From positions 21,275 through 85,274 of the forward strand of contig JANXVZ010000027.1 in assembly GCA_025351405.1 (NCBI GenBank): DNA of 64,000 nt. Direction: 5' to 3'. Position numbers and translations under genes: made by a program. A model generated the notes under the pieces. The model saw only the letters and a program-made list of their open reading frames with translations. It ran no database searches and was not told the DNA's origin. This document shows, piece by piece, positions 48,256 through 60,918 of this stretch; the stretch's first letter is position 1; every line of letters begins with the position of its first letter. This DNA comes from Sphingomonadales bacterium (GTDB taxonomy: Bacteria; Pseudomonadota; Alphaproteobacteria; Sphingomonadales; Sphingomonadaceae).

Positions 48256-48528
48256 TCAGCGCTTGTCGTCGCCCGACCTTGTATCCCCGCCACCGGTACG
48301 GGTGTCACCGCCGCCCGATCGCGTATCGCCGCTGCCGGTGCGGGTGTCACCACCCCCGGAGCGGGTGCCGTCGCTGGTGACGGCGGGTTCGGCGGGCGGG
48401 GCTTCCGCCGCCGGGGCCACCGCTTGTTCCGAAGCCGTGGCGTCGGTCGGCGGGGCCGGGGCCTTTTGTTTGCCACACGCCGAAAGCGGCAGCGCTGCAA
48501 CGACGGCGATGGCAAGAATTGCACGCAT
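48256..48528 (-). CDS. Small lipoprotein (90 aa) with C-terminal [S/T]G[G/S]GDTR repeats
   Basis: AAAGGT RBS, lipobox LSAC, Pro/Ala linker, then a repeat tail. Confidence 0.75.
   Translation of the reverse strand: MRAILAIAVVAALPLSACGKQKAPAPPTDATASEQAVAPAAEAPPAEPAVTSDGTRSGGGDTRTGSGDTRSGGGDTRTGGGDTRSGDDKR
48259..48375 (-). repeat. 21-bp (7-aa) tandem coding repeat: four full units at 48277-48360 plus degenerate flanks
   Basis: Encodes SDGTR-SGGGDTR-TGSGDTR-SGGGDTR-TGGGDTR-SGDDKR, with synonymous codon differences between units. Confidence 0.9.
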
Positions 48529-48574
48529 TGTCGGACCTTTCATTGCGGCCCCCGGCCGTTCACGATTGTGAAAG

Positions 48575-50506
48575 CTATGCCAAACCCATCCGGCCTAGCA
48601 ACCGGTTATATCGGGCATCGTTCCGAAGTGGCGCGAACATCGGGTCGATGAGCGTCGAGGCCATGCCGCCATCGCGGATGTCATAGGCGCGTTCCAGCGC
48701 CGCAAAGGCATCCTCCGTGCGGCCCCATTGTGCCAGCACCTGGGCCTGCTGATAGCTGGCGTTGTCGCCGTGCAGCGTAACCAGTTCCGTCAATGCCGCT
48801 TCGGCTGCCGGCCGGTTGCCAAGCTTGTGGTCGACGATCGCCAGACCGGCCAGCCGCAATATCGGCAAAGGCTCGGCGGCAAAGGCGGTGCGGGCCGCCG
48901 AAGCATCGGCCAGCATCAACTGGGCAAAACCGATCTGGGAATGCGCAGAAGACAGCTTCGCGTTCATCGCCAGCGCCTGTTCTGCCCGCGCCACTGCACT
49001 CCGGTAATTGCCTGTGGCAAGTTCGATGGCGGAATCGGCACGAAAGGTGCGGGGATTGAGCGGGTCGAGCTGTTCGGCGTGGACGATCACCCGGCGCGCA
49101 TCCTCGCCGCGCCCCGCCTTGGCAGTAAAATAGGCGTACATCAGCAGGATATCGGCATCCCCCTGTCCCAGGGCAAAGGCACGGTCATACGCGGTGCGCG
49201 AGCCCCTGAAGTCGAGAAAGCCGTTGAGGGTGGCATAGCCCAGCGCAAGATGTGCCGCGGCGAGGTCGGGTGCCAGCGCCACCGCCCGCTGTGCGGCAGC
49301 AACCGCCGCGCCGTAGGTATCGACGATGCGGTCTGCCTTGGCGTACAGGCTGGCGATCCCGGCCAGGGAGCGCGAGCGCGCCGCATGGGCGGCGGCAAAA
49401 CCGGGGTCGAGCGATATGGCTTCGTCGAAGCGCGCCAGCGCGGCGCGATCCGCGCTCTCGCCGGCGTCGCCGTTGAACAACGCCCGCCCGCGCAGGAAAG
49501 CGTCATAGGCGGCAACGACAGTGGTTCCGCCGGGGGCCTTGCCGCCCGCCGTGGTGACATGACTGAGCAGCGCGCTGGCGACGGTGACCGCAATCTCGCT
49601 CTGCAATGCGAAAATGTCATCGAGCTTGCGGTCGAAACTTTGCGACCAGCTGGCAAAGCCGGCCGCCACATCGGTCAACGTCACATCGATGCGGACAAGG
49701 TTGCCGGATTTTCGCACATTGCCGTCGAGCAGATAGCCGACGCCGAGCTTGCGGGCGATCTCCCGTGCATCTTCCTTGTGATCGCGAAACTCGTTCGACG
49801 ATGTCGGCGCGGCGACCTTCAGCCCGGCGACGCGGACGAGGGCCGCACGAACCTCCTCGCAAAGACCCTCGGAGAAATAGTCCTGGCTCCTGTCGCCGCT
49901 GAGATTGGCAAAGGGCAGGACCGCCAGCGCATTCCTGACAACACCTTGCCGCCACGGCTTGATGGCGACCATGGCTGCGGCGGCTGCGAGCACGGCGACG
50001 CCGCCACCCCCGGCAATCAGCGCGCGGCGGGAAACCCAGGTTCGCGCCACTGGGGCGGAATATTCGAGGTCGACGGTGTCTGCAGCGGCTGCGATGCCGC
50101 GCTCAAGGCTGGCGAACTCGGCAGCGTCGGCTCGCCTGTTCCAGCGCGACAGGTCGATCGTGTGATATTGCCGAAAGCCCAGGGGCGGTTCCGCGCCATC
50201 GATGGTGACGGGCACCAGCCGCTTGCGATCGCGGGCATGGGCAGCCTCGTCGCGCACCCAGTCCGATGCGACCGAATTTGCGGACCAGACGACGATCACG
50301 GCTTCGGCTGCGGCAAGCTTGCCCTCGATGGTCCTGGCAAAGGCCGCGCCGCCCGCGATCAATGCGTCCCACCACAGCGGGTAGCCGGCAACGATGAGCG
50401 CATCGACCAGCGGACGCACCTTTTCACGGTCAGCGCGAGCATAGCTGACGAACAGGCCCGGTTTGACAGCCACCATCGCATCCTGGTCGTTGGCCGTGAC
50501 CTTCAC
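48575..50506 (-). CDS. TIR domain - TM - TolB-N-like - TPR protein
   Basis: TIR motifs LFVSYARAD, WWD, VIVVWSANSVASDWVRDEA (catalytic-type Glu); hydrophobic helix ALIAGGGGVAVLAAAAAMVAI; LAVLPFANLSGD...YFSEG; TPR helices. Alternative ATG at 50476. Confidence 0.9.
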   Translation of the reverse strand: MKVTANDQDAMVAVKPGLFVSYARADREKVRPLVDALIVAGYPLWWDALIAGGAAFARTIEGKLAAAEAVIVVWSANSVASDWVRDEAAHARDRKRLVPVTIDGAEPPLGFRQYHTIDLSRWNRRADAAEFASLERGIAAAADTVDLEYSAPVARTWVSRRALIAGGGGVAVLAAAAAMVAIKPWRQGVVRNALAVLPFANLSGDRSQDYFSEGLCEEVRAALVRVAGLKVAAPTSSNEFRDHKEDAREIARKLGVGYLLDGNVRKSGNLVRIDVTLTDVAAGFASWSQSFDRKLDDIFALQSEIAVTVASALLSHVTTAGGKAPGGTTVVAAYDAFLRGRALFNGDAGESADRAALARFDEAISLDPGFAAAHAARSRSLAGIASLYAKADRIVDTYGAAVAAAQRAVALAPDLAAAHLALGYATLNGFLDFRGSRTAYDRAFALGQGDADILLMYAYFTAKAGRGEDARRVIVHAEQLDPLNPRTFRADSAIELATGNYRSAVARAEQALAMNAKLSSAHSQIGFAQLMLADASAARTAFAAEPLPILRLAGLAIVDHKLGNRPAAEAALTELVTLHGDNASYQQAQVLAQWGRTEDAFAALERAYDIRDGGMASTLIDPMFAPLRNDARYNRLLGRMGLA

Positions 50507-50536
50507 CCCGATTGCCCCTGAATCCCAACAACGGTT

Positions 50537-51586
50537 CTAGTGTGTCGTTACGGGGTTGGAAAGCTTTGCTCCGGCATCCCTGATCCAGTCCCGATAGGCC
50601 GATACATTGGTGTAGATGGCCGGTGTATCGGGCAGCGCGCAGCCGCGCCCCCACGACACCAGGCCAACCAGCACCCGCTCGCTGCCCTGCGCTCTCGTCA
50701 TCGGCCCGCCGCTGTCGCCGTTGCAACTGTCGACCCCGGGGCGGTCGGACACAGCGCATACCGTCTGTGCGACAGCACGGTCGCGGTAGTTGGGCAGCGC
50801 CGCGCAGGCCGGGTCCTGCGGGGTCTGGTTGATCTGCATCAGGATCGGCGACATGTGGTTGAGCGTCTTGCCGTCGCGCGCCATCTCGCCGCCGCCTGAA
50901 TCGCGCGCCAGCGTCCGGCCCCAGCCGGTGATGCGCAGGCGGTCACCCTGGCCTAGCGGCACATCACCGGGGCGCGAGCCAAGGATGCGGATCCGCGCCT
51001 GTTCCCGCCGGAAACGCCGCGCCGGCGCGTTGTCCGCGGCGATCCGCAGGATGGCAATATCGTTCAGCGGCGGATCACCGCGCACATAGCCGGGATGTTG
51101 CTGCCATGCGACAATGCGAAAGGTCACGCCGTTGTTCTTCAGGTTCTGGGTCCCCATCCGGACGCCGCGCGCCGTTCCAAAGCCCGCGACATTGTCCAGA
51201 CAATGGGCAGCCGTGAGCACGAGATCGCCGCCGATATATACGCCACCGCAGCGGTGGGCGATTTCCCATTTTTCCTTCTCTGCAAGATGGAAGCATCCCT
51301 TGCCGGGCTTGCAGTCGTCGGCGATCTCCTGCGGCGTGTAGACATGGGTCGAATAGATCTGCACTTGCCAGGGGGCGCTGCCTGCGGGCGCCGCCGAACC
51401 GCCGACGATGCGGCCTTCTCCCTCCGGGCTTTCGGGCGGAGCGGGGGTGGCAGCGGGAGTGGCAGGGGGCGCCTCCGGGGCCGCTGCCCCTGCAGGCTCT
51501 GCTGCTGGCTGCGCAGCCGCTGCCGGCGCCAGGCAGGCAAGCGCCGACCAGGCCAGCGTCACCGAGGCAAGGACCAGATATTTCAT
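50537..51586 (-). CDS. Exported trypsin-like serine protease (S1) zymogen
   Basis: Signal peptide, Pro/Ala propeptide, R|IVGG, HRCGG, LTAAHC, NDIAIL and DSCNGDSGGP; GLVSWGRGC. Confidence 0.93.
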   Translation of the reverse strand: MKYLVLASVTLAWSALACLAPAAAAQPAAEPAGAAAPEAPPATPAATPAPPESPEGEGRIVGGSAAPAGSAPWQVQIYSTHVYTPQEIADDCKPGKGCFHLAEKEKWEIAHRCGGVYIGGDLVLTAAHCLDNVAGFGTARGVRMGTQNLKNNGVTFRIVAWQQHPGYVRGDPPLNDIAILRIAADNAPARRFRREQARIRILGSRPGDVPLGQGDRLRITGWGRTLARDSGGGEMARDGKTLNHMSPILMQINQTPQDPACAALPNYRDRAVAQTVCAVSDRPGVDSCNGDSGGPMTRAQGSERVLVGLVSWGRGCALPDTPAIYTNVSAYRDWIRDAGAKLSNPVTTH

Positions 51587-53601
51587 GGCGGTGACCCCTT
51601 TCGCATGACCAGTGCGTCTTCGATCGTGACGGTCCAGTCGCCCAGCGTCGGCAGGCCGCCATCGCGGGCGCCGCTGCCGCCATTGGTGCAGACGCCGCGC
51701 GCTTCGGCCTCGGTATCGCACGGCCCCGACATGCGGCGGCGCATCGGTGGCTGCTCCAGGGCTGCCACATTGATCGGCGCGTCGGTCGCCAGAATCACAA
51801 ATCGGTATAGCCCGGTGGTGTTGAGCGCAAAGGGGCCGGGCCGTTGCGCGGCACCCCCGGGCATCGGCGGATCCTTGCCATGCGCGGTCGGAATCAACTG
51901 GGTGATCCCGTACCGATTGTCGATGACCAGCACCGAGATATAGCGCGCCGCGGCGCCTTTGTTGGTCACAGTGAGGACCAGCGGGGTATCGACGGGCACA
52001 CGGCGTTGTTTGTCGACAGGTTCGGGGCAGGTCTGGAGCGGATGATCGAGCCGGGTCGAAAGGCACAGGGCAAGCCCGGCCTGTTCAGCGCTGCCGGACG
52101 CCAGCGAGACCAGGCGCTGGGCATTGTATGCCGGCAGCAGCGCCATCCGCAGCTGTTCGGCAAGATCCGGCTCGGTGACAGGGCCAATTGTGGCGAGGCC
52201 GTCGCCATCACCCGAATTCAGGTAGACCGGAACATCATCCGCGGTGCCACGACGCAGCAGATTGAACTGGGCCGAGGACCCGGCAGTGACGACGTCGACA
52301 AAGCCCAGCGAGGCGAGCGCCTTTCTGAGCCGGCTCTGGTCCGGTGGGGTTGCTTCGGATACCGAGGCTTTTAGCCGGTCGTTGCCGAAGGCATGGGCGG
52401 TTTCACGCCCAACCAGTATCGGCGGGAGCGGGCGTTCCGGTTGGCTGTCGAGGCTCAACCGGGCCTGCCCGTCGGTGATCACGGTCACTGTCGCCAGCGC
52501 CAGCGGCTTGGCTGCATCGTTCAGCGCGTCGGCCTGGTTCGCGAACAGGGCGAATTTCGATCCGACGCTCATCCCCAGCAGCCGCCCGGCGGCGAGGGCG
52601 ATGCCGTCGGTCCCGGCTTCGGCATCGAACAAGGCGACGCCGATCGCCTCCCCGCCGAAACGCGCCTGGAGTGCGCCTTCGGCCTGCGGATGCTGGCGCT
52701 TGTGGCCGCCCTGTTCCACCCTCAGCCGCACGGCGGTGGCGATATCCCCAAAGGTTGCGTCCGGCCGGGCGACAAGCGCCTGGGCAAAGGCAGTGGTGAA
52801 GACGCCATGGACACTGGCGCCCGCGACGACCTCTCGGGCTTCCTCGTCGTCGCGGGAGGCGCCGAAATGAACGCGGTAGCCGCCGCCGGGACCGACAGCC
52901 GCCAGATCCGGGCGGAAATCGGCGTGATGCCCGATCGAGACGCCCTTGACGCCGCGATTGAAGCCTTCGCCGGCCTCGCCGCGCGTAGCGGTGCCTGAGT
53001 TGCACGAATCGAAGATGGTCACGACATTGACGCCGCGGGCGCTGGCGACATCGATGATGCGGCGGATCTCGCGATCGACGATGTCGGCCGCGGCGGTGGC
53101 ATCCGGGTTGCGCGCATCGGTCGGCAGGATGGTGCTGTCCACCCCGGAGGCCTGGTCGAAAACCTGGTCGTCGGCGATGGTCGAGCCGTGCCCTGCGAAA
53201 TAGAAGATCACCGTGTCACGCGGTGCCGAAGCGGCGATCAGGCTGGTCAGTGACGCGAGGATCTGCTTGCGCGTGGCGCAGCCGTCGGTGAGCGTGATCG
53301 AAAGCCCATTCGACGTCGCGCACTTGCCCGGCACCGCCGTATCGAACGACAGGCGATAGGCAATCGCCAGGGCCTGCTTGATTGCCTGGGCGTCCGACAC
53401 GGCCCCCCGCAAATCGCCGAAATCCGCATCGGGATAGGCAGGTCGCCGTGAAAACTGGTATTTGTCGATCCCGACGAACAGCCCGCGGATTGCCGGAGCG
53501 GCGTGCCCGTTCTGTGCGGCCGACGCGGCCGGGGAGGTCTGTGCGGCCGGCGCGGCGGCCGATGCCAGCAAAAGCGGCAGCGTGAGCCACAGCCGCTTCA
53601 C
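51583..53601 (-). CDS. Exported caspase-family (C14) protease with C-terminal DUF4384-like domain
   Basis: Signal peptide, GLFVGIDKY, DLRGAVSDA, IFYFAGHGS (His), IFDSCNSG (Cys) and HGVFTTAF. GTGA and ATGA overlaps with its neighbours. Confidence 0.9.
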   Translation of the reverse strand: MKRLWLTLPLLLASAAAPAAQTSPAASAAQNGHAAPAIRGLFVGIDKYQFSRRPAYPDADFGDLRGAVSDAQAIKQALAIAYRLSFDTAVPGKCATSNGLSITLTDGCATRKQILASLTSLIAASAPRDTVIFYFAGHGSTIADDQVFDQASGVDSTILPTDARNPDATAAADIVDREIRRIIDVASARGVNVVTIFDSCNSGTATRGEAGEGFNRGVKGVSIGHHADFRPDLAAVGPGGGYRVHFGASRDDEEAREVVAGASVHGVFTTAFAQALVARPDATFGDIATAVRLRVEQGGHKRQHPQAEGALQARFGGEAIGVALFDAEAGTDGIALAAGRLLGMSVGSKFALFANQADALNDAAKPLALATVTVITDGQARLSLDSQPERPLPPILVGRETAHAFGNDRLKASVSEATPPDQSRLRKALASLGFVDVVTAGSSAQFNLLRRGTADDVPVYLNSGDGDGLATIGPVTEPDLAEQLRMALLPAYNAQRLVSLASGSAEQAGLALCLSTRLDHPLQTCPEPVDKQRRVPVDTPLVLTVTNKGAAARYISVLVIDNRYGITQLIPTAHGKDPPMPGGAAQRPGPFALNTTGLYRFVILATDAPINVAALEQPPMRRRMSGPCDTEAEARGVCTNGGSGARDGGLPTLGDWTVTIEDALVMRKGSPP

Positions 53602-56600
53602 GGGCGCAGCCGTCGCAACACAAGCTGGCTGGCGGAGCCCGTGAAGTCGAACAGCGACGGTTCCTGAACCGGGCGCCGCGCCGCGGTGCCATCGAGGAAA
53701 TCGACACCGCGCGCACCGCTCGGCGCGCCGGGGCGGCGCGCAATCCGGCTGTCCTGGCTCAGCATCGGCAGGCGATGCACGGCGTAACGCAGCCATTCGT
53801 CGAGTGTGATCGCGCCGTCGCCATTTTCATCGGCCATCCCGCCATTGGCAGTGATGCCTTCATCGGCAAGCGCATAGGTGAGCAACCCTTGCCCCAGGTT
53901 GGCGGATTCGAGCGCGATGTCGTCGGCCTGGGTCGCGGCCAGGATCCGCATCCGCTTGTCAAATGCCAGCTGGCCCAGGCCGCCGTCCCCCATCGGGCCA
54001 GGACGGAAACCGCCTGCATCGACGCTGGCGGCCGAATGACAGGCATCGATGATCATCGCCATCTCGCCGGCATCGATGCGTCGCAGAAAGCGCGACATCT
54101 CAAGCGTCGAGACAAACGACGCAACATCGGGCGCCAGGGTCGCGTCGGGCCAGCGTGCGTCGGTGGGCAGCAGGTAGAAATTGCCTTGCCGATCGGCCCA
54201 GCCATGGCCCGAAAATGAAATCAGCACGACATCGTCCGGCCCGGCGGCATCAAGCGTCGACGCATCGATGCCCCGCGCCTGCAGCCGCGCCAGTGCTTCA
54301 CGGCGGGGGCTTCCGCCAAGGATGCCGAAGACATCGGCCAGCGCCGCCCGTGTTATGTCCGGGCTGCCGGGCTTCCCGGTACCCGCCAGCACCAGCAGGT
54401 GGACATTTTCGGCATCGGGCAGCGTGGCCAGCCGCGCACCGATCAGCGCTGCATCGTCCGCGGCGAAATTGAGCCGGAGCCGGGGTTCGGCATAACCGTC
54501 GATGCCGATGGCCACGACAAAGATGCGCCGCCTTGACGTGGCGACGGACGGCGGCCGGTAGAGTTGCCGGGCGGTTTCGCTCTTAACCCGGTCCTCGTTG
54601 AAGGCATAGGCGGTGAATTCGACCGGTGCGCCGCTGGTGGAGACCCTGACCGGCAGGCGAATTCGCGCCACCCCATCCTTGCCGACAACCACCCGGTTTT
54701 CCTGCCGCCAGCGCTTCAGGTCGAACTGCAGCGCATCGGGAGCGCCGCCCGGCGACTGGGCAACGAGGCTGCCGTTGCGGAACAACCGCAGGTCGTACCC
54801 GTCGCTGTGCAACTTGCCGTTGGGCGCATCGGGACGCGATCCGGGGCGCAGTTCGAGACCGACAAGCACATTGCCGGGGGTCGCAGCCTTGGTGATGCCG
54901 GTAATCCGCACCGTCGGCAGCACCCGGTTGATATCGGCCAGCCGGGCGACGGGGCGAAACGCGCTGGCGCAGCTGTCGGTCAGCGTACAGGCCATCACGC
55001 GGGGTCCGAGCCGGGGCTCGAAGAAATTGCGCATGAAGGTCTGCGGCCCCAGCGACTGCAGCGGCGCGTCGGACACCACCCAGCGAAAGTCGCGGGTGTC
55101 GGCACCCAGGTCGGTATCATAGCGACCATCGGGGGCCATGGTGAAAAAGCTGCGATCATTCACGAGGTAGGTTCGCAACACCTCCGGGCTGGCAAAAGCG
55201 TCGTCGCGGCGGGGACGCCACAGGACGATGCCGTCGGTGTTGGTCACCACCCAGCGCAATGGACTGCCCGGGATCGCGCCTTCCGCCACGACATTCTTGA
55301 ACAACAGCCGTGATTCGCGCGCTCCGCCGGCTATGCTGACGGCACTGATCGGTTGATCGGCGATTTCGGCAAACCGTTCGTACCAGCTCTTGCCATCGCT
55401 GCTGACCGTTGCCCGGGCCAACGCCTCCACCGGCGGCGCATTTCCTTCAAGCGCGGTGAAAGGCGCGGCGGCCATCTCCCAGCGGTAAAACCTTCCGTCG
55501 CGGCTCAGCCCGACGGACTTGCTGTCCGCTGCAAATTCGATCACCGGATAGGTGCTCCCGTCCGGCAGCGCGGTCTCGGCGATCACGGTTCCGTCTTCTG
55601 TATCGATGGCGCGCACGAGATGGCTGCTTGTCGTCACGATCAGGCGCTTGCCGTCCGGCGTTGCCGCAAGCGTTTCGATAAAGGTGCCGCTCGCGTCGGC
55701 AGGCCCCAACGCCTGCCAGCCGGTTGCCGGATCATAGCGCTGCAGGCCTTGTTCCCCGCGGCCGTGCAAGGCGGTGCAGTTGCCGAGCCCGGCGCCGATG
55801 ATGACGCCGTTGCCAAGCGCCTGTGTGTAGCAGCGGAAGGGGATCAAATCCCCCGCCGCCTTGCCGGTGGACGCCGCGATCACCCGCGACACACCGGGCT
55901 TGCCCGCCTGGGCGGAATTGCGGTCCCCGCCGCTGTTGTCGCCCGGCAAAAGCACCTTCTCGTCATCCAGCCAGGTGACCGTCGAATGGAACCCCTCGAC
56001 CGTGACCCGGGATACGACGGCCCAGACGGCAAGATCGAACACCATGATACCGGACCGGCGTTGTTGCCCCGCGGTGGCGGGCGTCTGGGCGACGTCGAAA
56101 ATCAGCGCCATCCGCTTTCCATCGGGGGACAGTGCAGCGCCAAAGGCCATGGTCGGCTCGGGCTTGTCGAGCTTGCGCACCGGCCTGCCCCGCGCGTCCT
56201 CGATGACGAAGGGATAGTCGCCGACATCGATGCGAAGCTGGCCGTTGTGCGAAGCGATGACCCTGCCTTGCAATCCCGTCCCGATGCACGGCGCCATGGG
56301 CTCCCCTGTCTGGACCTGCCAGTCGCCGCCGCCGAGCGGCGGCAGGCGCATCGTCAGCGCGGTGCAAAAGCTGCTGTCGGTATCGCGAATGTTGGCCTTG
56401 ACCGTCAGGCCGGAGTTGTGATCGACCCTCGCGTCCCACGCCTCGATATTGGACTTCGGGTCAAAGGCGGGAAACGGGACAAGGTTGACGATATCGCCCG
56501 TCGCTGCATCCCACACCGTGACGCTGCGCACGAGGTTGTCGATGCCGATCACGAACCTATCATCCCGGCTCCAGGCGAAAACGGTCTGTGTCGGGATGGT

Positions 56601-56777
56601 GCGTTGCAGCACAAGCTTTGGGTAGGCCGCGTCACTGGGGGCAATCCGCTTGCCGACGTTTGCCGCGTCGCCCGCCGTGGCGGCCCTGGCGCATGGCGAG
56701 CAACCCAGGGTGAAGGCGATCACCAGCATGTTCGGGATGTTGTGCGCCCAATATGCCCTGCGGCGGATGCTGGCCAT
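53598..56777 (-). CDS. Beta-propeller (WD40/PD40-like) - caspase-family (C14) fusion protein, probable signal peptide
   Basis: Propeller repeats FAWSRDDR, ALSPDGKR, ATPDGKR and VSSDGK; FVVAIGIDGY; ISFSGHG (His); IIDACHSA (Cys); GLLTYAL; ADENGDGAITLDEW. Confidence 0.88.
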   Translation of the reverse strand: MASIRRRAYWAHNIPNMLVIAFTLGCSPCARAATAGDAANVGKRIAPSDAAYPKLVLQRTIPTQTVFAWSRDDRFVIGIDNLVRSVTVWDAATGDIVNLVPFPAFDPKSNIEAWDARVDHNSGLTVKANIRDTDSSFCTALTMRLPPLGGGDWQVQTGEPMAPCIGTGLQGRVIASHNGQLRIDVGDYPFVIEDARGRPVRKLDKPEPTMAFGAALSPDGKRMALIFDVAQTPATAGQQRRSGIMVFDLAVWAVVSRVTVEGFHSTVTWLDDEKVLLPGDNSGGDRNSAQAGKPGVSRVIAASTGKAAGDLIPFRCYTQALGNGVIIGAGLGNCTALHGRGEQGLQRYDPATGWQALGPADASGTFIETLAATPDGKRLIVTTSSHLVRAIDTEDGTVIAETALPDGSTYPVIEFAADSKSVGLSRDGRFYRWEMAAAPFTALEGNAPPVEALARATVSSDGKSWYERFAEIADQPISAVSIAGGARESRLLFKNVVAEGAIPGSPLRWVVTNTDGIVLWRPRRDDAFASPEVLRTYLVNDRSFFTMAPDGRYDTDLGADTRDFRWVVSDAPLQSLGPQTFMRNFFEPRLGPRVMACTLTDSCASAFRPVARLADINRVLPTVRITGITKAATPGNVLVGLELRPGSRPDAPNGKLHSDGYDLRLFRNGSLVAQSPGGAPDALQFDLKRWRQENRVVVGKDGVARIRLPVRVSTSGAPVEFTAYAFNEDRVKSETARQLYRPPSVATSRRRIFVVAIGIDGYAEPRLRLNFAADDAALIGARLATLPDAENVHLLVLAGTGKPGSPDITRAALADVFGILGGSPRREALARLQARGIDASTLDAAGPDDVVLISFSGHGWADRQGNFYLLPTDARWPDATLAPDVASFVSTLEMSRFLRRIDAGEMAMIIDACHSAASVDAGGFRPGPMGDGGLGQLAFDKRMRILAATQADDIALESANLGQGLLTYALADEGITANGGMADENGDGAITLDEWLRYAVHRLPMLSQDSRIARRPGAPSGARGVDFLDGTAARRPVQEPSLFDFTGSASQLVLRRLRP

Positions 56778-57052
56778 CACCGGACCCTTTCTGCCCTGAA
56801 GGTGCGGCTGAACCGACAGGGTGTCAATCAGCGCCGGTGGCCGCTGGCGGCGGCTTTCCATGCCGCCTCGATCCGGGCTCATGCGTCGTCAGCCGGTGCG
56901 GTGCGTCGCAAGCCCCGGTATGCCAACCGGGGAGGACGGTCTGCACCGCTATCGGCAGGATTTTGCGCTGGCGCTGCTGAACATGCTATCGCGCTTTGCC
57001 GACGGGCGGGATCGAAACGGGGGGATCGCGTAGTGCATCTGGTGGGGCATGA

Positions 57053-58777
57053 ATGACCGCTGAGCCATTGACCGTGGGAGTCACTGGCCATCGCCCGGCC
57101 CGGTTGGTCGGTGTCGACACTGCCGTTCTCGCAGCGCAGATCTGCGCGACGCTCGAGGCTTTTGCAGACGCTGCCGGCCATGATCGCAAATTCCGGCTGG
57201 TGAGCAGCCTCGCCGAAGGGGCCGACAGCATCGCCGCCGGGGTTGCACTGCAGATGGGTTGGCAACTCGACGTCACGCTGCCGTTCGATCGCGTTCGCAA
57301 TGCCCAGGACTTTCCGGATTCGGATGCGCTTGCAGCGCTCGATGCCTTACTCCTTCGTGCCGATTCCGTGTTCGAACTGTGCAGCGGTTGCCTCGAGGCC
57401 GAGCCGGCCAGCACGGCTTATGAACGCGCCGGCCGGGTCATGCTCGCGCAGTGCGATGTGTTGCTGGCCGTGTGGGATGGCAAGCCTGCCCAGGGGCGCG
57501 GCGGCGCCGCACAAATCGTCGCCGAGGCGGTGCTGCAGGGCGTGCCCGTCTTGCACGTCGCCCTGGCGGACGGTGCGCGGCCCTTGTTGTTATGGGACCG
57601 GCTGGACGAACATGACGTCGGGCAACACACGCTGGATACAATTCCCCGCGCGGGCCTTGAGCAGTTGCCGCGGCTGGTGGCGCATCTGCTTGGCGATGCC
57701 GACAGCGGTGCCTTGCCGCGCCACTACCGTGGCCGCCGACGCCTGACCGTCGCGGTGGCCTATGCAATGCTGATGGCGGTCATGGCCGTCCGGAGTTTGC
57801 GCGGCGCCGACTTTGTCAAAGCCGACCCGGATATCGCGCGGGACGCATTGCTGGCCGGATGTTCGGCGACCCGGCAAGCCACGCCGTTCGGCGAGCGGCT
57901 GACCCGCGTGCTCGCTCCAGGCTTTGGCTCGGCCGACGCCAGCGCCACCGATTTCTCGCGCCGTTTCCGCAGCGCCTATGTCGCCAACTTCGTCCTGGCG
58001 GCGCTCGCCGTCGTCACCGCCCTTGTCGGGCTGGCGCTGCCCAAGTCGGCCAAGCCGGGGCTGATCGTCATCGAACTCGCGATCGTCGCGACGATCCTGA
58101 TCGTCACGCGCATGGGCAACAAATCGGGCTGGCACCGGAGCTGGCTGAGCAGCCGCCAGGTTGCCGAGCAATTGCGCTGCCTGGCGATCACGGCGCAGCT
58201 TGGCGATCTGCGGCTGCGGGCCAATACCCATCCAACCACCCGCAACGTGGCGCGGCAGCTCGGGCTGCCAAATGCCATCGCCGATGCGCCCTATCTGGCG
58301 GCAATTCAGGCAGATCTGGGCCGATTGATCGATTCGCAGATCGACTATCTGGAGCGCGACGCCAGCGTTATGCATCGGCTGGAGCATCGCCTGCACCGGC
58401 TCGGCGGCTTGCTCTTCCTCGCCACGGCCACGATCTGCCTTCTCTACCTGGCTGCCGAGGTGGCCATCATGGCCAATCCGGCGTGGCACCATATCGTCGA
58501 GCCGGTGCTGATCTGGGGGACCATATTGAGCGCGGGGTTCCCTGCGATCGGGGCAGCCATCTACGGTATTCGCATGCAGGGCGACTTCAGCGGCTCGGGT
58601 GAACGAAACGCCGCCCTTGCCGCCGAACTTCGCCGGGTTCGCCAGCTTACGCAGAAGACACCCCAAACCTATGATACGCTTGCCCGGCACGCGAAGATCG
58701 TCGCGGACCTGATGGTCGCCGATCTGACCGATTGGTTCCGGGCGTACAAGGCGCGGCCGCTCGCTCTGCCCGGTTGA
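57053..58777 (+). CDS. SLOG (YspA/DprA-LOG-like) domain fused to two SLATT/DUF4231-like two-TM modules
   Basis: VGVTGHR, SSLAEGAD, YERAG and DVLLAVWDG...GRGG...VPVLHV in the SLOG domain; two hydrophobic hairpins followed by W...R..AEQLR and QIDY...GIRMQGDF motifs. Confidence 0.78.
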   Translation: MTAEPLTVGVTGHRPARLVGVDTAVLAAQICATLEAFADAAGHDRKFRLVSSLAEGADSIAAGVALQMGWQLDVTLPFDRVRNAQDFPDSDALAALDALLLRADSVFELCSGCLEAEPASTAYERAGRVMLAQCDVLLAVWDGKPAQGRGGAAQIVAEAVLQGVPVLHVALADGARPLLLWDRLDEHDVGQHTLDTIPRAGLEQLPRLVAHLLGDADSGALPRHYRGRRRLTVAVAYAMLMAVMAVRSLRGADFVKADPDIARDALLAGCSATRQATPFGERLTRVLAPGFGSADASATDFSRRFRSAYVANFVLAALAVVTALVGLALPKSAKPGLIVIELAIVATILIVTRMGNKSGWHRSWLSSRQVAEQLRCLAITAQLGDLRLRANTHPTTRNVARQLGLPNAIADAPYLAAIQADLGRLIDSQIDYLERDASVMHRLEHRLHRLGGLLFLATATICLLYLAAEVAIMANPAWHHIVEPVLIWGTILSAGFPAIGAAIYGIRMQGDFSGSGERNAALAAELRRVRQLTQKTPQTYDTLARHAKIVADLMVADLTDWFRAYKARPLALPG

Positions 58778-58812: not shown

Positions 58813-60663
58813 TTATTGCGGCTGGTCGCCGGGCTTTCGTTCCTTCCGTGCCGCCTTCTGCGCCTCGATCTTGGCGGCCTGGCTTGCCTGCACCTCCGTC
58901 TGGTGCTGCGCCTGCACCTCGGCGCGTTGCTTGTCGCGTGCCGCGGCAGCTGCGACGCGGGTCGCGTCCGCCTGCTTCTGGCGCTCGACAGCCGCTGTCG
59001 CCCGCGCCGCCTCCATCGCTTTTTGCTTTTCTGCGTCCGCCTGCTGGCGCTGGGCACCGGCCGCGGTCTTGGCGTCTTCGCGTGACTTGGCGGCGGCTGC
59101 ATCGCGCTGAACCTTGGCGGCGGTTGCGGCCTCGGCCCGTTGCGCAGCCTGGGCGTCGCGCGCTTTCGCTGCCTCGGCGCGCGCACGCTCCTGTTTCGCC
59201 AGATTTTCCGTCACCGCCTGCTGATGCGTGGCTTCGGCCGCCGTGCGAGCGGCCTCCTGGTGCTTGAGGCGTTCGGCCGCGGCGAGCTGGCGCTGGGCAT
59301 CGGCATTGGTCCTGGCTTCGTCGCGCGCCTTGGCCACTGCCGCATCGCGCTGTGCCTTGGCCGTTGCGGTCGCCGCGGCCGCTGCCTGGGCCTGCTGTGC
59401 CAGCTGCGCGTCATGGGCCTTGGCAGCTTCGGCGCGGGCACCATCCTGTCGCTGCTGGCGGGTGATCGCCGCATCGCGCTCGGCCCTGGTGCGGGCAGCC
59501 TCGGCCATTGCGCGGCTCTGGGCGCGGCTCTGGGCGCCGCTCTGGACACCACTCTGGGCGAGAGCGTCCTGCGCAGCCTGTCGTTGGCGAGCCGCATCCT
59601 GGGCACGCTGGGCGTCGAGCCCGGCTTGCCGCCGTTGGGCGTCAGTTGCGGCTTGGGCCTGTGCGATTTGGGCTTGTGCGATCTGGGCCGACTGGGCGGC
59701 AGCCCCGCGAGCCGCCGCGGCGCGCGCCTCGGCATCGGCCTGCTGCTGGCGAAAGCGCATGTCGTCACGCCCACCTGGCGCAAGCCCGCGGTCGTCACGG
59801 TGGTCGCGATCGCGGGTCAGGGCAATCGCTGCCGCGCCGGCGCCGACCCCGATTGCGGCAGCATAGGCCGTCCGGCGGTCACGCTCTGCCCGCCAGTCGC
59901 GTTGCTCGCTGTCGCGATTTGCATCGTAATAGGCCTGGCGCTCGGCATCCCGGGCGCGGGCCTCGTCGTAGGCGCGCTGGCGCTCCAGCACCGCTTCGCG
60001 ACGCGCACGCCAGTCGGCGGCATAGGCAGCCTGGCGTTGCTCGTTGAATGCAGCACGATGGAGGGCGCGGGCGCGGTCGAGATAACGCCCCGCTGCATCG
60101 GCGCGGCGCTGGGCATATACATCGTCGAGCGGCGCGCCGTCGCGGCCATAAACCCCGACAAGTTCGCCGTCATCATAGGCATAGCTGCCGTCTGGGTCGC
60201 TGACATAGAAGGGCTGGTCGGCGCCGGGCTGGTAGTAATATTCACGCTGGCCCTGCGGCAATACCTCGACCACACGAGTACCGCCGTTGTCGCCGCGCCA
60301 TACCCATGGGCGCGTGCCCTGGTAATCGACCGTGTAGTCGGGGGGCGTATCGCCGAAGGCCTGACCCATCGCATGGGCACGGTCGGCATAGCGATAGCGA
60401 TCGTTGCGGGGCCTGGCCTTGATCCGGATTGCCTGGGCGGGGGCCGGCAAGGCAGCGGCGACCGGTGCGGCGACCAGCGGTACGGGCGGTGCGGCGGTCG
60501 CGAGCGGCAACGCGGCCAATGGCGGCGCACTGACCGGCTGGGTGCCGGTCTCGGCAGTGGCGGCAGGCGCCGTGGACGGAGACTTGTCGCAGGCGCTGAG
60601 CACCAGCGCGAAGGCCGTCGCGGCAAGTGCGAGGCGGGAAACGTTCAAGCGGCGGTCGGTCAT
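58813..60663 (-). CDS. Lipoprotein with small globular domain and long Ala/Gln/Arg-rich TolA-like helical tail
   Basis: Lipobox VLSAC, Pro/Ala linker, Tyr-rich domain (WVWR...EYYYQPG...PFYV), and a charged low-complexity tail with an internal duplication. Confidence 0.75.
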   Translation of the reverse strand: MTDRRLNVSRLALAATAFALVLSACDKSPSTAPAATAETGTQPVSAPPLAALPLATAAPPVPLVAAPVAAALPAPAQAIRIKARPRNDRYRYADRAHAMGQAFGDTPPDYTVDYQGTRPWVWRGDNGGTRVVEVLPQGQREYYYQPGADQPFYVSDPDGSYAYDDGELVGVYGRDGAPLDDVYAQRRADAAGRYLDRARALHRAAFNEQRQAAYAADWRARREAVLERQRAYDEARARDAERQAYYDANRDSEQRDWRAERDRRTAYAAAIGVGAGAAAIALTRDRDHRDDRGLAPGGRDDMRFRQQQADAEARAAAARGAAAQSAQIAQAQIAQAQAATDAQRRQAGLDAQRAQDAARQRQAAQDALAQSGVQSGAQSRAQSRAMAEAARTRAERDAAITRQQRQDGARAEAAKAHDAQLAQQAQAAAAATATAKAQRDAAVAKARDEARTNADAQRQLAAAERLKHQEAARTAAEATHQQAVTENLAKQERARAEAAKARDAQAAQRAEAATAAKVQRDAAAAKSREDAKTAAGAQRQQADAEKQKAMEAARATAAVERQKQADATRVAAAAARDKQRAEVQAQHQTEVQASQAAKIEAQKAARKERKPGDQPQ

Positions 60664-60918
60664 CGGATGTCCAGTCGGTTGTGCAAAATCTCTAACGCAC
60701 ACTGCGCGCGTTCGGATGAACACGGCGCGAACGGTGGCGCAGATGATAGTTCAATTGGCCCATGCGGATCCGCGCATTCTGTGGAGCAACCAAGCGTCCG
60801 GTCGACCACCACATCGCTGGAATTGCGTCGATAAAGTGGATTGCCGGGTTGCTTCGTTTGCCCGGCGCAATACTCTGTCCGCCAGGCGTTGCCGGGTTCA
60901 ACGTGAGGGAGTTTCGTC

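What the first reader, a model, noticed from the sequence alone, without database searches (positions are those of the whole stretch)
57053..58777. SLOG fused to tandem SLATT-like membrane modules: a possible nucleotide-gated membrane effector
Seen: an N-terminal SLOG-type fold (about 57053-57560) followed by two two-TM modules (about 57930-58180 and 58340-58760). Known: SLOG domains bind or process nucleotides, and SLOG-SLATT associations were predicted computationally in conflict systems. In Thoeris, SLOG is coupled to SIR2 rather than to TMs. Inference: a Thoeris-like variant with a membrane-disrupting output, paired with the TIR 6.5 kb away.
Basis: partly seen in the sequence, partly recalled or inferred. 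Interest (0 to 1): 0.68.

Follow-up and report, generated by a model that had tools for sequence, protein, structure and literature searches.

The report
TIR-linked SLOG membrane effector gene
This gene encodes a membrane protein with a nucleotide-sensing SLOG domain and four membrane helices that is repeatedly found beside a TIR "immune-type" enzyme gene, so it is probably the membrane output of a Thoeris-like signalling system, a class that has been predicted but never shown to work.

Summary
ORF 57053-58777 (+) is a real, single-copy 574-aa gene. A confident AlphaFold model (pLDDT 89) has an N-terminal SLOG fold; its best PDB matches are YpsA, DprA and ShosA. Two 2-TM helical hairpins follow. 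The first is weakly but consistently DUF4231/SLATT-like. The second has the same helix layout but no detectable SLATT signature.

The pairing with the TIR gene 6.5 kb away is supported by comparison. A homologous TIR-(TM)-TPR gene lies within 10 kb in 32 of 53 fully flanked related loci, in several orientations. The link extends to Betaproteobacteria and a Caballeronia plasmid. The catalytic-position Glu is invariant in all 50 neighbouring TIRs. In 201 genomes of the family the gene is patchy (36), and TIR co-occurs with it (28/36 versus 17/165).

Function is untested. "TIR + SLOG and 4TM" is already listed as a putative Thoeris configuration (Yirmiya et al. 2025); two representatives gave no defence in E. 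coli. This scan has also noted TIR/SLOG-4TM cassettes on other DNA (86 notes).

What is distinctive here is the partner: a membrane-anchored TIR-TPR receptor with three apparently exported proteases. Verdict: a new variant of a predicted kind, of moderate interest.

The parts
57053..58777 (+). SLOG-4TM gene (574 aa plus stop), the finding itself
   Evidence: ORF and translation; homologues; AF2 model pLDDT 89; single copy in its own genome
57053..57607 (+). Cytoplasmic SLOG domain (res 1-185), YpsA/DprA-like. Invariant loops are GVTGHR (9-14), LAEGAD (53-58), YERAG (123-127), WD (141-142) and GRGG (148-151), at strand ends or helix starts
   Evidence: Foldseek matches YpsA 2nx2, DprA, ShosA and TM1055; weak Pfam YAcAr (7/32) and DprA (3/32) hits; invariant columns and secondary structure
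57608..57883 (+). Linker (res 186-277) with a conserved hydrophobic helix at res 231-249 (nt 57743-57799); lower model confidence
   Evidence: pLDDT 56-64 around res 210-230; hydropathy 1.87; conserved A236, Y237, L240, L241, G245, R247
57884..58201 (+). 2-TM module 1 (res 278-383), DUF4231/SLATT-like; TM1 nt 57980-58036, TM2 nt 58061-58117
   Evidence: Pfam DUF4231 at res 295-377, 22.1 bits; NCBIfam SLATT_1/SLATT_3 weak; DUF4231 matched in 31/32 relatives; helices H278-325, H331-358, H360-383; hydropathy
58286..58774 (+). 2-TM module 2 (res 412-574); TM3 nt 58412-58468, TM4 nt 58505-58561. It carries the most conserved motif of the family, PAIGAAIYGIRMQGDF, and an invariant C-terminal RPLxLPG tail. 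SLATT identity is not shown
   Evidence: Helices H412-474, H476-510, H512-535, H540-567; invariant columns; hhalign against module 1 gives prob 0.3%; Pfam search of the module alone is negative
56883..57052 (.). Divergent intergenic region between the SLOG-4TM gene and the protease/TIR operon. It is up to 275 bp long if the large caspase-like gene starts at its signal-peptide Met near 56777
   Evidence: ORF map; sequence; no sigma-70-like site or inverted repeat found
48575..50506 (-). Partner gene: TIR (res 18-130, nt 50117-50455; catalytic-position Glu87 at nt 50246-50248), TM (res 164-182, nt 49961-50017), TolB_N/DUF3280-like domain and TPR
   Evidence: Pfam TIR_2 at 2.5e-22, TPRs, DUF3280 weak; TPR_END; TM hydropathy 2.11; Glu invariant in 50/50 neighbouring TIRs; homologues adjacent to SLOG-4TM genes
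50537..52066 (-). Trypsin-like serine protease. The ORF as listed overlaps the upstream gene; the real start is probably internal, before a signal-peptide-like segment at ORF res 164-182
   Evidence: Pfam Trypsin at 2.3e-35; hydrophobic N-terminal segment; present in 12/53 related loci
51583..53796 (-). Caspase-like (Peptidase_C14) protein with a signal-peptide-like N-terminus (KRLWLTLPLLLASAAAPAAQ)
   Evidence: Pfam C14 at 3.6e-14; PADLOC 'caspase'; N-terminus; present in 5/53 loci
53598..56882 (-). Large (~1060-1094 aa) protein with a C-terminal caspase-like domain and a lipoprotein/signal-like N-terminus
   Evidence: NCBIfam caspase_w_EACC1 and PADLOC caspase, both sub-threshold; N-terminus; beta-propeller hits in the same-genus homologue; present in 4/53 loci

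Best explanation
The protein is the inner-membrane effector of a TIR-based (Thoeris-like) nucleotide-signalling module. Its cytoplasmic YpsA/DprA-like SLOG domain is proposed to bind an NAD-derived nucleotide (an ADP-ribose or cyclic-ADPR isomer). That nucleotide would be made by the partner TIR-(TM)-TPR protein when its TPR/TolB_N-like sensor part is triggered. Ligand binding would then change the packing or oligomerisation of the four TM helices (one DUF4231/SLATT hairpin plus a second hairpin). The inner membrane would become permeable or depolarised, stopping growth or killing the cell, most likely as an abortive-infection type of immunity.

Shown here: the SLOG fold; the 4-TM architecture; conservation of the nucleotide-site loops; conserved gene linkage and genomic co-occurrence with TIR genes; retention of the TIR catalytic Glu; and a patchy, accessory distribution.

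Inferred: the ligand, the gating, pore formation, toxicity and the biological trigger.
For: SLOG fold: the best PDB matches are YpsA (TM 0.72), DprA, ShosA and LOG, on a model with pLDDT 89. Invariant Gly-rich loops lie at strand ends.

SLATT-type hairpin: DUF4231 is matched in 31/32 relatives, and SLATT_1/SLATT_3 hits are weak. The Caballeronia homologue passes the Pfam cut-off (30.9 bits).

Linkage: a TIR is directly adjacent in 4/4 contigs of the closest homologues. A TIR lies within 10 kb in 32/53 fully flanked GTDB loci, and within 5 kb in 45/68 scorable tree tips spread over all clades. Orientation varies: co-directional in L008 and L004, divergent in L002, L005 and L006, convergent in L046.

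A full-length homologue at 30% identity on a mobilizable Caballeronia plasmid is again followed by a TIR_2 gene. A stand-alone SLOG of the same subtype sits in a ThsB-TIR / caspase / SLOG / TIR operon on a Rhizobium plasmid.

Co-occurrence: TIR-domain matches are found in 28/36 genomes with the gene against 17/165 without it (my tally).

Natural contrast in the same genus: G028 keeps the proteases and a 44%-identical TPR receptor whose N-terminus is not TIR, and it has no SLOG-4TM gene.

The TIR Glu87 is invariant in 50/50 neighbours.

Precedent: SLOG binds 3'cADPR in type I Thoeris, and a SLATT effector responds to cADPR in type VII. 'SLOG and 4TM' is listed as a putative effector.
Against: There are no functional data. 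The two published 'SLOG and 4TM' operons gave no phage defence in E. coli.

The locus is not in a recognisable defence island: its neighbours are peptidases, an amidase and a TonB receptor. PADLOC finds nothing for the protein.

About 40% of fully flanked loci have no TIR within 10 kb. Of five such genomes, two had no TIR match at all.

The SLOG here is closest to YpsA/DprA, not to the ThsA SLOG whose ligand is known.

The window's TIR domain is not specifically related to the preprint's '4TM SLOG' TIRs.

The second hairpin is not detectably SLATT.

In this window the TIR is 6.5 kb away with three genes between.
Confidence: 0.5

Rival explanations
1. The wiring is the same (TIR product to SLOG to membrane protein), but the module is not anti-phage suicide. 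Instead it is an envelope-surveillance or physiological signalling pathway whose output is a regulated ion flux. It would be triggered from the periplasm through the TPR ectodomain of the membrane-anchored TIR receptor and the exported proteases.
For: The TIR protein has a strong TM segment between the TIR and the TolB_N-like/TPR part. The three protease genes have signal-peptide-like N-termini. A TM in the TIR protein goes with a trypsin neighbour (16/20 against 7/28 by a crude hydropathy cut-off). The neighbourhood is metabolic or peptidase genes, not defence genes. There are no phage or prophage hits. Foldseek also retrieves TRPM channels, whose N-terminal region matches the SLOG part; TRPM2 was solved with ADP-ribose (weak scores).
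Against: The distribution is patchy and accessory: 36/201 genomes in the family, present in only 1 of 2 other genomes of the genus, and with divergent alleles. Relatives occur on plasmids. Partners are shuffled: in L046 the TIR is 67% identical but the SLOG-4TM only 45%; in L002 the SLOG-4TM is 57% identical but the TIR 26%. These are typical of conflict systems. Many partner TIR-TPRs lack a TM and any protease neighbour.
Confidence: 0.25
2. The protein is a TIR-independent membrane protein gated by, or binding, a common cellular nucleotide. The TIR linkage would be secondary or confined to some lineages.
For: 21/53 fully flanked loci have no TIR within 10 kb, including most of an Erythrobacteraceae clade. 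8/36 genomes with the gene have no TIR-domain match. 2/5 unlinked genomes have none at all. The family is very large (10,213 cluster representatives), and its contexts outside these orders were not examined.
Against: TIR adjacency is spread across all clades of the tree, including distant Betaproteobacteria and a 30%-identical plasmid copy. This argues that the link is ancestral and selectively retained. In 3/5 'unlinked' genomes a TIR of this type is present elsewhere.
Confidence: 0.12
3. The SLOG domain is an enzyme, not a sensor. It could be a LOG-like N-glycosidase/phosphoribohydrolase or a nucleotide-processing enzyme. It would make, convert or destroy the TIR-derived signal at the membrane, with the TM helices serving mainly as an anchor.
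For: SLOG includes true enzymes (the LOG family; TM1055 is among the structural matches). Invariant charged residues lie at the pocket: R14, D58, E124, R125, D142, R149, and E158 is nearly invariant.
Against: The TM part is the most conserved region of the protein (PAIGAAIYGIRMQGDF, WHRxWLxxRxxAExLRC), which is not expected of a mere anchor. The closest folds, YpsA and DprA, are binding proteins rather than hydrolases. The canonical LOG PGGxGTxxE spacing is not reproduced (GRGGAAQIVAE, my reading).
Confidence: 0.08

Closest known systems
Putative Thoeris configuration 'TIR + SLOG and 4TM' / '4TM SLOG' (Yirmiya et al., bioRxiv 10.64898/2025.12.03.692087, Tables S1-S2)
   Same: The effector architecture is the same: SLOG plus four TM helices, encoded next to a TIR gene. 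Both are predicted to respond to a TIR-made signal.
   Different: Their two tested operons (Streptomyces sp. GKU 895, Ca. Nitrospira nitrosa) gave no defence in E. coli. The window's TIR domain shows no specific similarity to their '4TM SLOG' TIRs. Here the TIR is a 643-aa TM-anchored TPR receptor rather than a small ThsB, and in some loci three exported proteases accompany it.
Type VII Thoeris (ThsB TIR + ThsH SLATT effector; signal canonical cADPR)
   Same: A TIR gene is paired with a SLATT-type 2-TM membrane effector thought to breach the membrane on ligand binding.
   Different: ThsH is described as SLATT only, with ligand pockets between SLATT protomers. Here a separate N-terminal SLOG domain is the likely sensor, and there is a second, non-SLATT hairpin.
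Type I Thoeris ThsA (SIR2-SLOG) and type III Thoeris ThsD (SLOG effector with several TIRs)
   Same: A SLOG domain acts as the receptor of a TIR-made ADPR-type signal.
   Different: The output there is SIR2 NADase (type I), not TM helices. The SLOG here is structurally nearest to YpsA/DprA, and ThsA was not among the top structural matches.
SLOG-SLATT associations predicted by Burroughs, Zhang, Schaffer, Iyer and Aravind, Nucleic Acids Res 2015 (from my own knowledge; paper not held). The Pfam name 'SMODS and SLOG-associating 2TM effector domain' reflects it
   Same: SLOG is treated as a nucleotide sensor coupled to a 2-TM pore-forming effector in conflict systems.
   Different: That work is a computational prediction only. 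The specific Sphingomonadales family, its TIR-TM-TPR partner and the protease genes were not, to my knowledge, described there.
Eukaryotic TRPM channels (TRPM2 is ADP-ribose gated); analogy only
   Same: An N-terminal SLOG-fold domain is joined to a transmembrane channel. TRPM2, TRPM4, TRPM5 and TRPM8 appear among the weak structural matches.
   Different: The TM domains are unrelated (six-TM tetrameric channel against two 2-TM hairpins). There is no evidence of common descent for the membrane part.

Membership tests
SLOG superfamily | Rossmann-like alpha/beta fold shared with LOG, Smf/DprA and YpsA | tested here: met
   Foldseek against PDB: YpsA 2nx2 (E 2.5e-4, prob 1.0, TM 0.72 on target), DprA 3uqz/5mll/4ljk, ShosA 8zva, LOG-like TM1055 1rcu. 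Model pLDDT 89.
SLOG superfamily | Profile match to a curated SLOG family above its threshold | tested here: inconclusive
   There is no hit for the window protein itself. Among relatives there are only sub-threshold hits: YAcAr in 7/32 and DNA_processg_A in 3/32. A PDB sequence-profile search found nothing.
SLOG superfamily | Conserved Gly-rich loops at the nucleotide-binding crevice | tested here: met
   Invariant or near-invariant GVTGHR (9-14), AEGAD (54-58), WD (141-142) and GRGG (148-151) lie at the C-terminal ends of strands or the starts of helices.
SLOG superfamily | Binding or processing of a nucleotide ligand | not testable with these tools
   Needs binding assays with the purified domain.
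SLATT (Pfam SLATT_1-6 / DUF4231) | Profile match above the curated threshold (first 2-TM module) | tested here: inconclusive
   In the window protein DUF4231 scores 22.1 bits against a cut-off of 24.7; SLATT_3 scores 15.3 and SLATT_1 20.8. At family level DUF4231 is matched in 31/32 relatives (best E 2.6e-7). The Caballeronia homologue scores 30.9 bits. Some relatives are annotated DUF4231/SLATT by their sources.
SLATT (Pfam SLATT_1-6 / DUF4231) | Two TM helices joined by a short loop and flanked by cytoplasmic helices | tested here: met
   Module 1: TM 310-328 and 337-355 with an 8-residue loop. Module 2: TM 454-472 and 485-503 with a 12-residue loop.
SLATT (Pfam SLATT_1-6 / DUF4231) | The second 2-TM module is also a SLATT domain (tandem SLATT) | tested here: not met
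   hhalign of module 1 against module 2 gives prob 0.3%. A Pfam scan of module 2 from 10 members gives one weak SLATT_1 hit (E 0.027) and otherwise noise.
Thoeris-type TIR signalling system | A TIR-domain gene with the catalytic Glu is genetically linked to the effector | tested here: met
   TIR_2 at 2.5e-22. Glu87 is invariant in 50/50 neighbours. A TIR lies within 10 kb in 32/53 loci. Co-occurrence is 28/36 against 17/165.
Thoeris-type TIR signalling system | The effector combines a ligand-sensing domain with a toxic or output module | tested here: met
   The architecture is SLOG plus a 4-TM part. Toxicity itself was not tested.
Thoeris-type TIR signalling system | Protection against phage, and a TIR-made signalling molecule that activates the effector | not testable with these tools
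   The only published trials of the 'SLOG and 4TM' layout were negative in E. coli.
Thoeris-type TIR signalling system | Location among other defence genes or mobile elements | tested here: not met
   The window's neighbours are S9/S15 peptidases, an amidase, an amidohydrolase, a TonB receptor, a coiled-coil lipoprotein and a 2OG oxygenase. PADLOC finds nothing for the effector. However, distant relatives lie on plasmids beside IS elements, and the distribution is patchy.
'SLOG and 4TM' putative Thoeris class (Yirmiya et al. 2025) | Sequence homology to the effectors listed there (IMG 2862473379, 2691454910) | not testable with these tools
   Only IMG identifiers are given for the effectors. 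The TIR domains printed in Table S1 show no specific similarity to the window's TIR (E>0.2).

The most novel reading that the evidence does not exclude
The SLOG-4TM protein is the cytoplasmic-membrane output of a bacterial pathway built like Toll signalling. Exported caspase-like and trypsin-like proteases would act in the periplasm. Their action, possibly on a small lipoprotein, would be read by the TPR/TolB_N-like ectodomain of a single-pass TIR receptor. The cytoplasmic TIR domain would then make an NAD-derived messenger that gates the SLOG-4TM protein. This would be an outside-in TIR pathway, unlike the Thoeris types described in the preprint read here, where a TIR protein senses phage invasion and signals to an effector inside the cell.
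Probability: 0.2. Interest if true: 0.85.

Novelty: new variant of a known kind. Interest (0 to 1): 0.55.

Why it matters
SLOG-4TM proteins form a very large family with no demonstrated function (about 10,000 clusters at 50% identity match the profile). The only published tests of TIR + 'SLOG and 4TM' operons were negative in a heterologous host. The Sphingomonadales lineage offers culturable native hosts (Sphingomonas, Novosphingobium, Qipengyuania). It also offers natural variants with and without the TIR, the TM anchor and the proteases. That makes testable the question of whether a SLOG domain can gate a membrane effector in response to a TIR product. If the membrane-anchored TIR-TPR receptor really reads a periplasmic event, TIR signalling in bacteria would extend from intracellular phage sensing to outside-in signalling.

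Tried and rejected
- PADLOC scan of the effector: no hit.
- PDB sequence-profile search with the family alignment: only noise, E>1.
- Internal duplication of the two 2-TM modules: rejected by hhalign.
- Pfam scan of module 2 alone: no SLATT support.
- Word-based search with the SLOG region alone: returned only the same ~600-aa family and no other architectures.
- Similarity of the window's TIR domain to TIRs of named Thoeris types in Table S1 of the preprint: all weak, and no affinity to the '4TM SLOG' TIRs.
- Promoter, terminator and inverted-repeat scans around the gene: nothing above chance.
- Phage records: no match.
- Empty-site or synteny comparison with two genomes of the same genus: DNA too diverged (64-78%) and rearranged to define island borders.
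- Burroughs et al. 2015 could not be read: not held.
- I considered that the hydrophobic helix at res 231-249 is a fifth TM. I rejected this as unlikely because it would put the SLOG domain outside the cell, and the model gives only a short helix there.
Full report
**Observation.** The window has about 66% G+C here and many spurious frames. ORF 57053-58777 (+) is nevertheless a real gene. Its ATG follows an in-frame TGA. It has one copy in its own 3.0-Mb genome. More than 300 full-length homologues at 45-66% identity were found by word-indexed search. A profile of 32 of them matches 10,213 cluster representatives at E<=1e-3, and 2,191 at <=1e-30. The best 150 are mostly full-length proteins of about 600 aa, with some shorter, partial ones. 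An AlphaFold2 model built on the alignment is confident (pLDDT 89.2, pTM 0.87).

**Domain anatomy.** Residues 1-~185 form a six-stranded alpha/beta domain.
- Against the PDB, the only match below E 1e-3 is B. subtilis YpsA (2nx2, TM-score 0.72 on the target).
- It is followed by DprA from three species, ShosA and the LOG-like TM1055. All have Foldseek probability 0.9-1.0. These are SLOG-superfamily members.
- Sequence profiles agree only weakly. Pfam YAcAr is matched in 7 of 32 relatives and DprA in 3 of 32. None reaches threshold, and there is no hit for the window protein itself.
- The invariant residues of the family are GVTGHR 9-14, AEGAD 54-58, YERAG 123-127, WD 141-142 and GRGG 148-151. 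They lie at the ends of strands or the starts of helices, where Rossmann-like folds hold nucleotides.

After a less confident linker (res 186-277) come two helical hairpins. Each is a long helix running into a TM helix, a short loop, a second TM helix and further helices. The TM segments are 310-328/337-355 and 454-472/485-503.
- The first hairpin matches DUF4231 (22.1 bits, cut-off 24.7), SLATT_3 and SLATT_1.
- DUF4231 is matched in 31 of 32 relatives.
- The second hairpin contains the most conserved stretch of the family (PAIGAAIYGIRMQGDF) and an invariant C-terminal RPLxLPG.
- It is not detectably related to the first (hhalign probability 0.3%) or to any SLATT model.

'Tandem SLATT' is shown for one module and is only a topological resemblance for the other.

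**Surroundings.** Upstream and divergent lies a minus-strand gene set:
- a ~1,090-aa protein with a C-terminal caspase-like domain (53598-56882);
- a Peptidase_C14 protein (51583-53796);
- a trypsin-family protease (50537-52066);
- a 643-aa protein with an N-terminal TIR_2 domain (E 2.5e-22), a strongly hydrophobic segment (res 164-182), a weak TolB_N-clan/DUF3280-like region and TPR repeats (48575-50506).

All three protease ORFs carry signal-peptide-like segments near their probable starts. Farther out, the genes are peptidases, an amidase, an amidohydrolase and a TonB receptor on one side. On the other side are a coiled-coil lipoprotein and a 2OG-Fe(II) oxygenase. This is not a recognisable defence island.

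**Is the TIR link real?** Several independent lines say yes.
- In contigs carrying the four closest homologues that I looked up (56-57% identity), a 600-681-aa TIR protein is the immediate neighbour. It is divergent in three contigs. In the fourth it is co-directional with overlapping stop and start, and the TIR gene is duplicated.
- Among 80 loci from GTDB species representatives plus these contigs, 53 have at least 5 kb on both sides. Of these, 32 carry a TIR-(TM)-TPR homologue within 10 kb, mostly within 2.3 kb.
- On a tree of the SLOG-4TM proteins, TIR adjacency (<5 kb) holds for 45 of 68 scorable tips. It is spread over every major clade, including a betaproteobacterial one. One Erythrobacteraceae clade has mostly lost it.
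- Gene order changes while the linkage stays. In Polymorphobacter (L008, the closest relative at 66%) the order is caspase, trypsin, TIR, SLOG-4TM, all on one strand. In Novosphingobium B225 (L046) the same five genes occur, with the effector convergent on the TIR end. In the window the effector is divergent from the other end.
- A 30%-identical full-length homologue on a mobilizable Caballeronia plasmid is followed by a TIR_2 gene.
- A stand-alone SLOG of the same subtype sits in a ThsB-TIR / caspase / SLOG / TIR_2 operon flanked by IS elements on a Rhizobium plasmid.
- In a sample of 201 genomes of the family, the gene is present in 36 (30 of 112 genera). It is in only one of two other genomes of its genus, and there at only 38% identity.
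- By my tally, 28 of the 36 carriers also have a TIR-domain match to the window's TIR protein, against 17 of 165 non-carriers. Related genomes are not independent, so this is descriptive.
- One genome of the same genus (G028) keeps the three proteases and a receptor 44% identical over the TolB_N-like/TPR part. Its N-terminal 170 residues are not TIR, and it lacks the SLOG-4TM gene.
- The catalytic-position Glu of the TIR domain is invariant in all 50 TIR proteins that neighbour a SLOG-4TM gene.

**Limits of the link.**
- About 40% of fully flanked loci have no TIR within 10 kb.
- Of five such genomes, three have a TIR of this kind elsewhere and two have none.
- Partners are also shuffled. L046 has the most similar TIR, trypsin and caspases but a 45%-identical effector. 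The 57%-identical effectors pair with a TIR subfamily only 26% identical.

**Mechanism.** The best-supported reading is a TIR-signal-gated membrane effector. The TIR makes an NAD-derived nucleotide. The cytoplasmic SLOG domain binds it. The four TM helices then rearrange or oligomerise, and the membrane is permeabilised or depolarised. The precedents are direct. SLOG is the 3'cADPR receptor of type I Thoeris. A SLATT-only protein (ThsH) is the cADPR-responsive effector of type VII. Everything after 'gene linkage' is inference.

Three rivals remain:
1. The same wiring serves envelope surveillance or physiology rather than phage defence.
2. The protein is TIR-independent and gated by a common nucleotide.
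3. The SLOG domain is an enzyme that makes, converts or destroys the signal.

For the first rival, I found a crude association. TIR proteins with a hydrophobic TM segment tend to have a trypsin gene nearby (16 of 20), and those without a trypsin neighbour mostly lack the TM (21 of 28). This fits a periplasmic connection between proteases and receptor. It rests on a simple hydropathy threshold and on related genomes.

**Comparison with what is known.**
- The association of SLOG with SLATT gave the SLATT domain its name (the Pfam description). From my own knowledge this traces to Burroughs et al. 2015, a paper I could not read here.
- TIR-SLATT neighbourhoods were noted in phages and conflict systems by the Aravind group.
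- A December 2025 preprint from the Sorek laboratory names TIR+SLATT type VII Thoeris.
- Its Tables S1-S2 list 'SLOG and 4TM' / '4TM SLOG' as a putative effector class. Two operons (Streptomyces, Nitrospira) were tested in E. coli without observed defence.
- I could not test homology to those effectors, because only IMG identifiers are given.
- The window's TIR domain is not specifically similar to their TIRs.
- The architecture is therefore a predicted, unvalidated kind. The Sphingomonadales family is a distinct lineage of it, with an unusual partner: a receptor-like TIR-TM-TPR, with optional exported proteases.

**Earlier notes of this scan.** I consulted these after forming the reading above.
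- Notes on this same window propose a Toll-like cascade. They also describe a small Arg-repeat lipoprotein downstream of the TIR gene. I confirmed that this ORF and its sequence exist but did not study it.
- A word search shows that the scan has already reported TIR + SLOG-4TM cassettes on other DNA: 86 notes in at least 71 genomes. One reports membrane TIR-TPR receptors with a SLOG-2x2TM effector.
- I did not check those notes. They agree with the reading, and they show that the theme recurs within this scan.

**Verdict.** Function is untested. I class it as a new variant of a known (predicted) kind, with interest 0.55. The most novel reading not excluded is an outside-in, protease-fed TIR receptor pathway ending at this membrane protein. 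I give that about one chance in five.

Noticed in passing
window 48256-48543 (-): A small lipoprotein-like ORF (95 aa, signal peptide ending LSAC) lies just downstream of the TIR-TPR gene. Its tail has repeats of the type G-G-D-T-R-(S/T)-G. Earlier notes of the scan flagged it; I only confirmed the sequence.
   Followed up: partly
window 48575-56882 (-) and loci L008, L021, L027, L031, L046, L047, L059, L067, L091, L092: The gene set large caspase-like protein, Peptidase_C14 protein, trypsin and TIR-TM-TPR recurs as a block in several Sphingomonadales. All three proteases have signal-peptide-like N-termini. A TM segment in the TIR protein goes with a trypsin neighbour (16/20 against 7/28).
   Followed up: partly
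L091 (G028:C18:17000-36000), ORF 5814-7691 (+): A genome of the same genus keeps the three proteases and a receptor 44% identical over the TolB_N-like/TPR part. The N-terminal ~170 aa are not TIR and have no Pfam hit, and that genome has no SLOG-4TM gene. This is a natural domain-swap control worth studying.
   Followed up: partly
L092 (G132:C124:1-12000): In another genome of the same genus, the SLOG-DUF4231 gene (537-2333, +) abuts the trypsin/caspase/large caspase-propeller operon directly, convergent, with no TIR gene between them. TIR-TPR homologues lie on other contigs.
   Followed up: no
L089 (Rhizobium binae plasmid p4, NZ_CP071608.1 175335-187751): A compact operon ThsB-like TIR (134 aa) / caspase (322 aa) / YpsA-like SLOG (159 aa) / TIR_2 (168 aa) is flanked by IS110, IS30 and ISNCY transposases on a conjugative plasmid. 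It looks like a Thoeris-like system combining type III and type IV parts.
   Followed up: no
L088 (Caballeronia sp. SBC2 plasmid pSBC2-4, NZ_CP049320.1 21393-33974): A full-length SLOG-DUF4231 homologue is followed by a 539-aa TIR_2 protein and a large WD40-repeat protein. Upstream is a TPR protein annotated with a cyclic-nucleotide-biosynthesis GO term.
   Followed up: partly
window 58756-58774 (+), C-terminus of the finding: The last residues RPLxLPG are invariant across the family (P569, L570, L572, P573, G574). This might be a docking motif for a partner; no test was done.
   Followed up: no
window 58813-60723 (-): A convergent 636-aa lipoprotein-like ORF (signal ending LSAC) is rich in Ala/Gln/Arg coiled-coil-like repeats. 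It has no Pfam hit and gives a marked AT skew (-0.45) and 73% G+C at 59000-59999. It has no homologue in the related loci.
   Followed up: no
L006 560-1408 (+) and L004: An FGE-sulfatase-domain gene lies beside the TIR gene in L006. In L004 two tandem TIR-TPR paralogues without a TM precede the effector, with a stop/start overlap.
   Followed up: no
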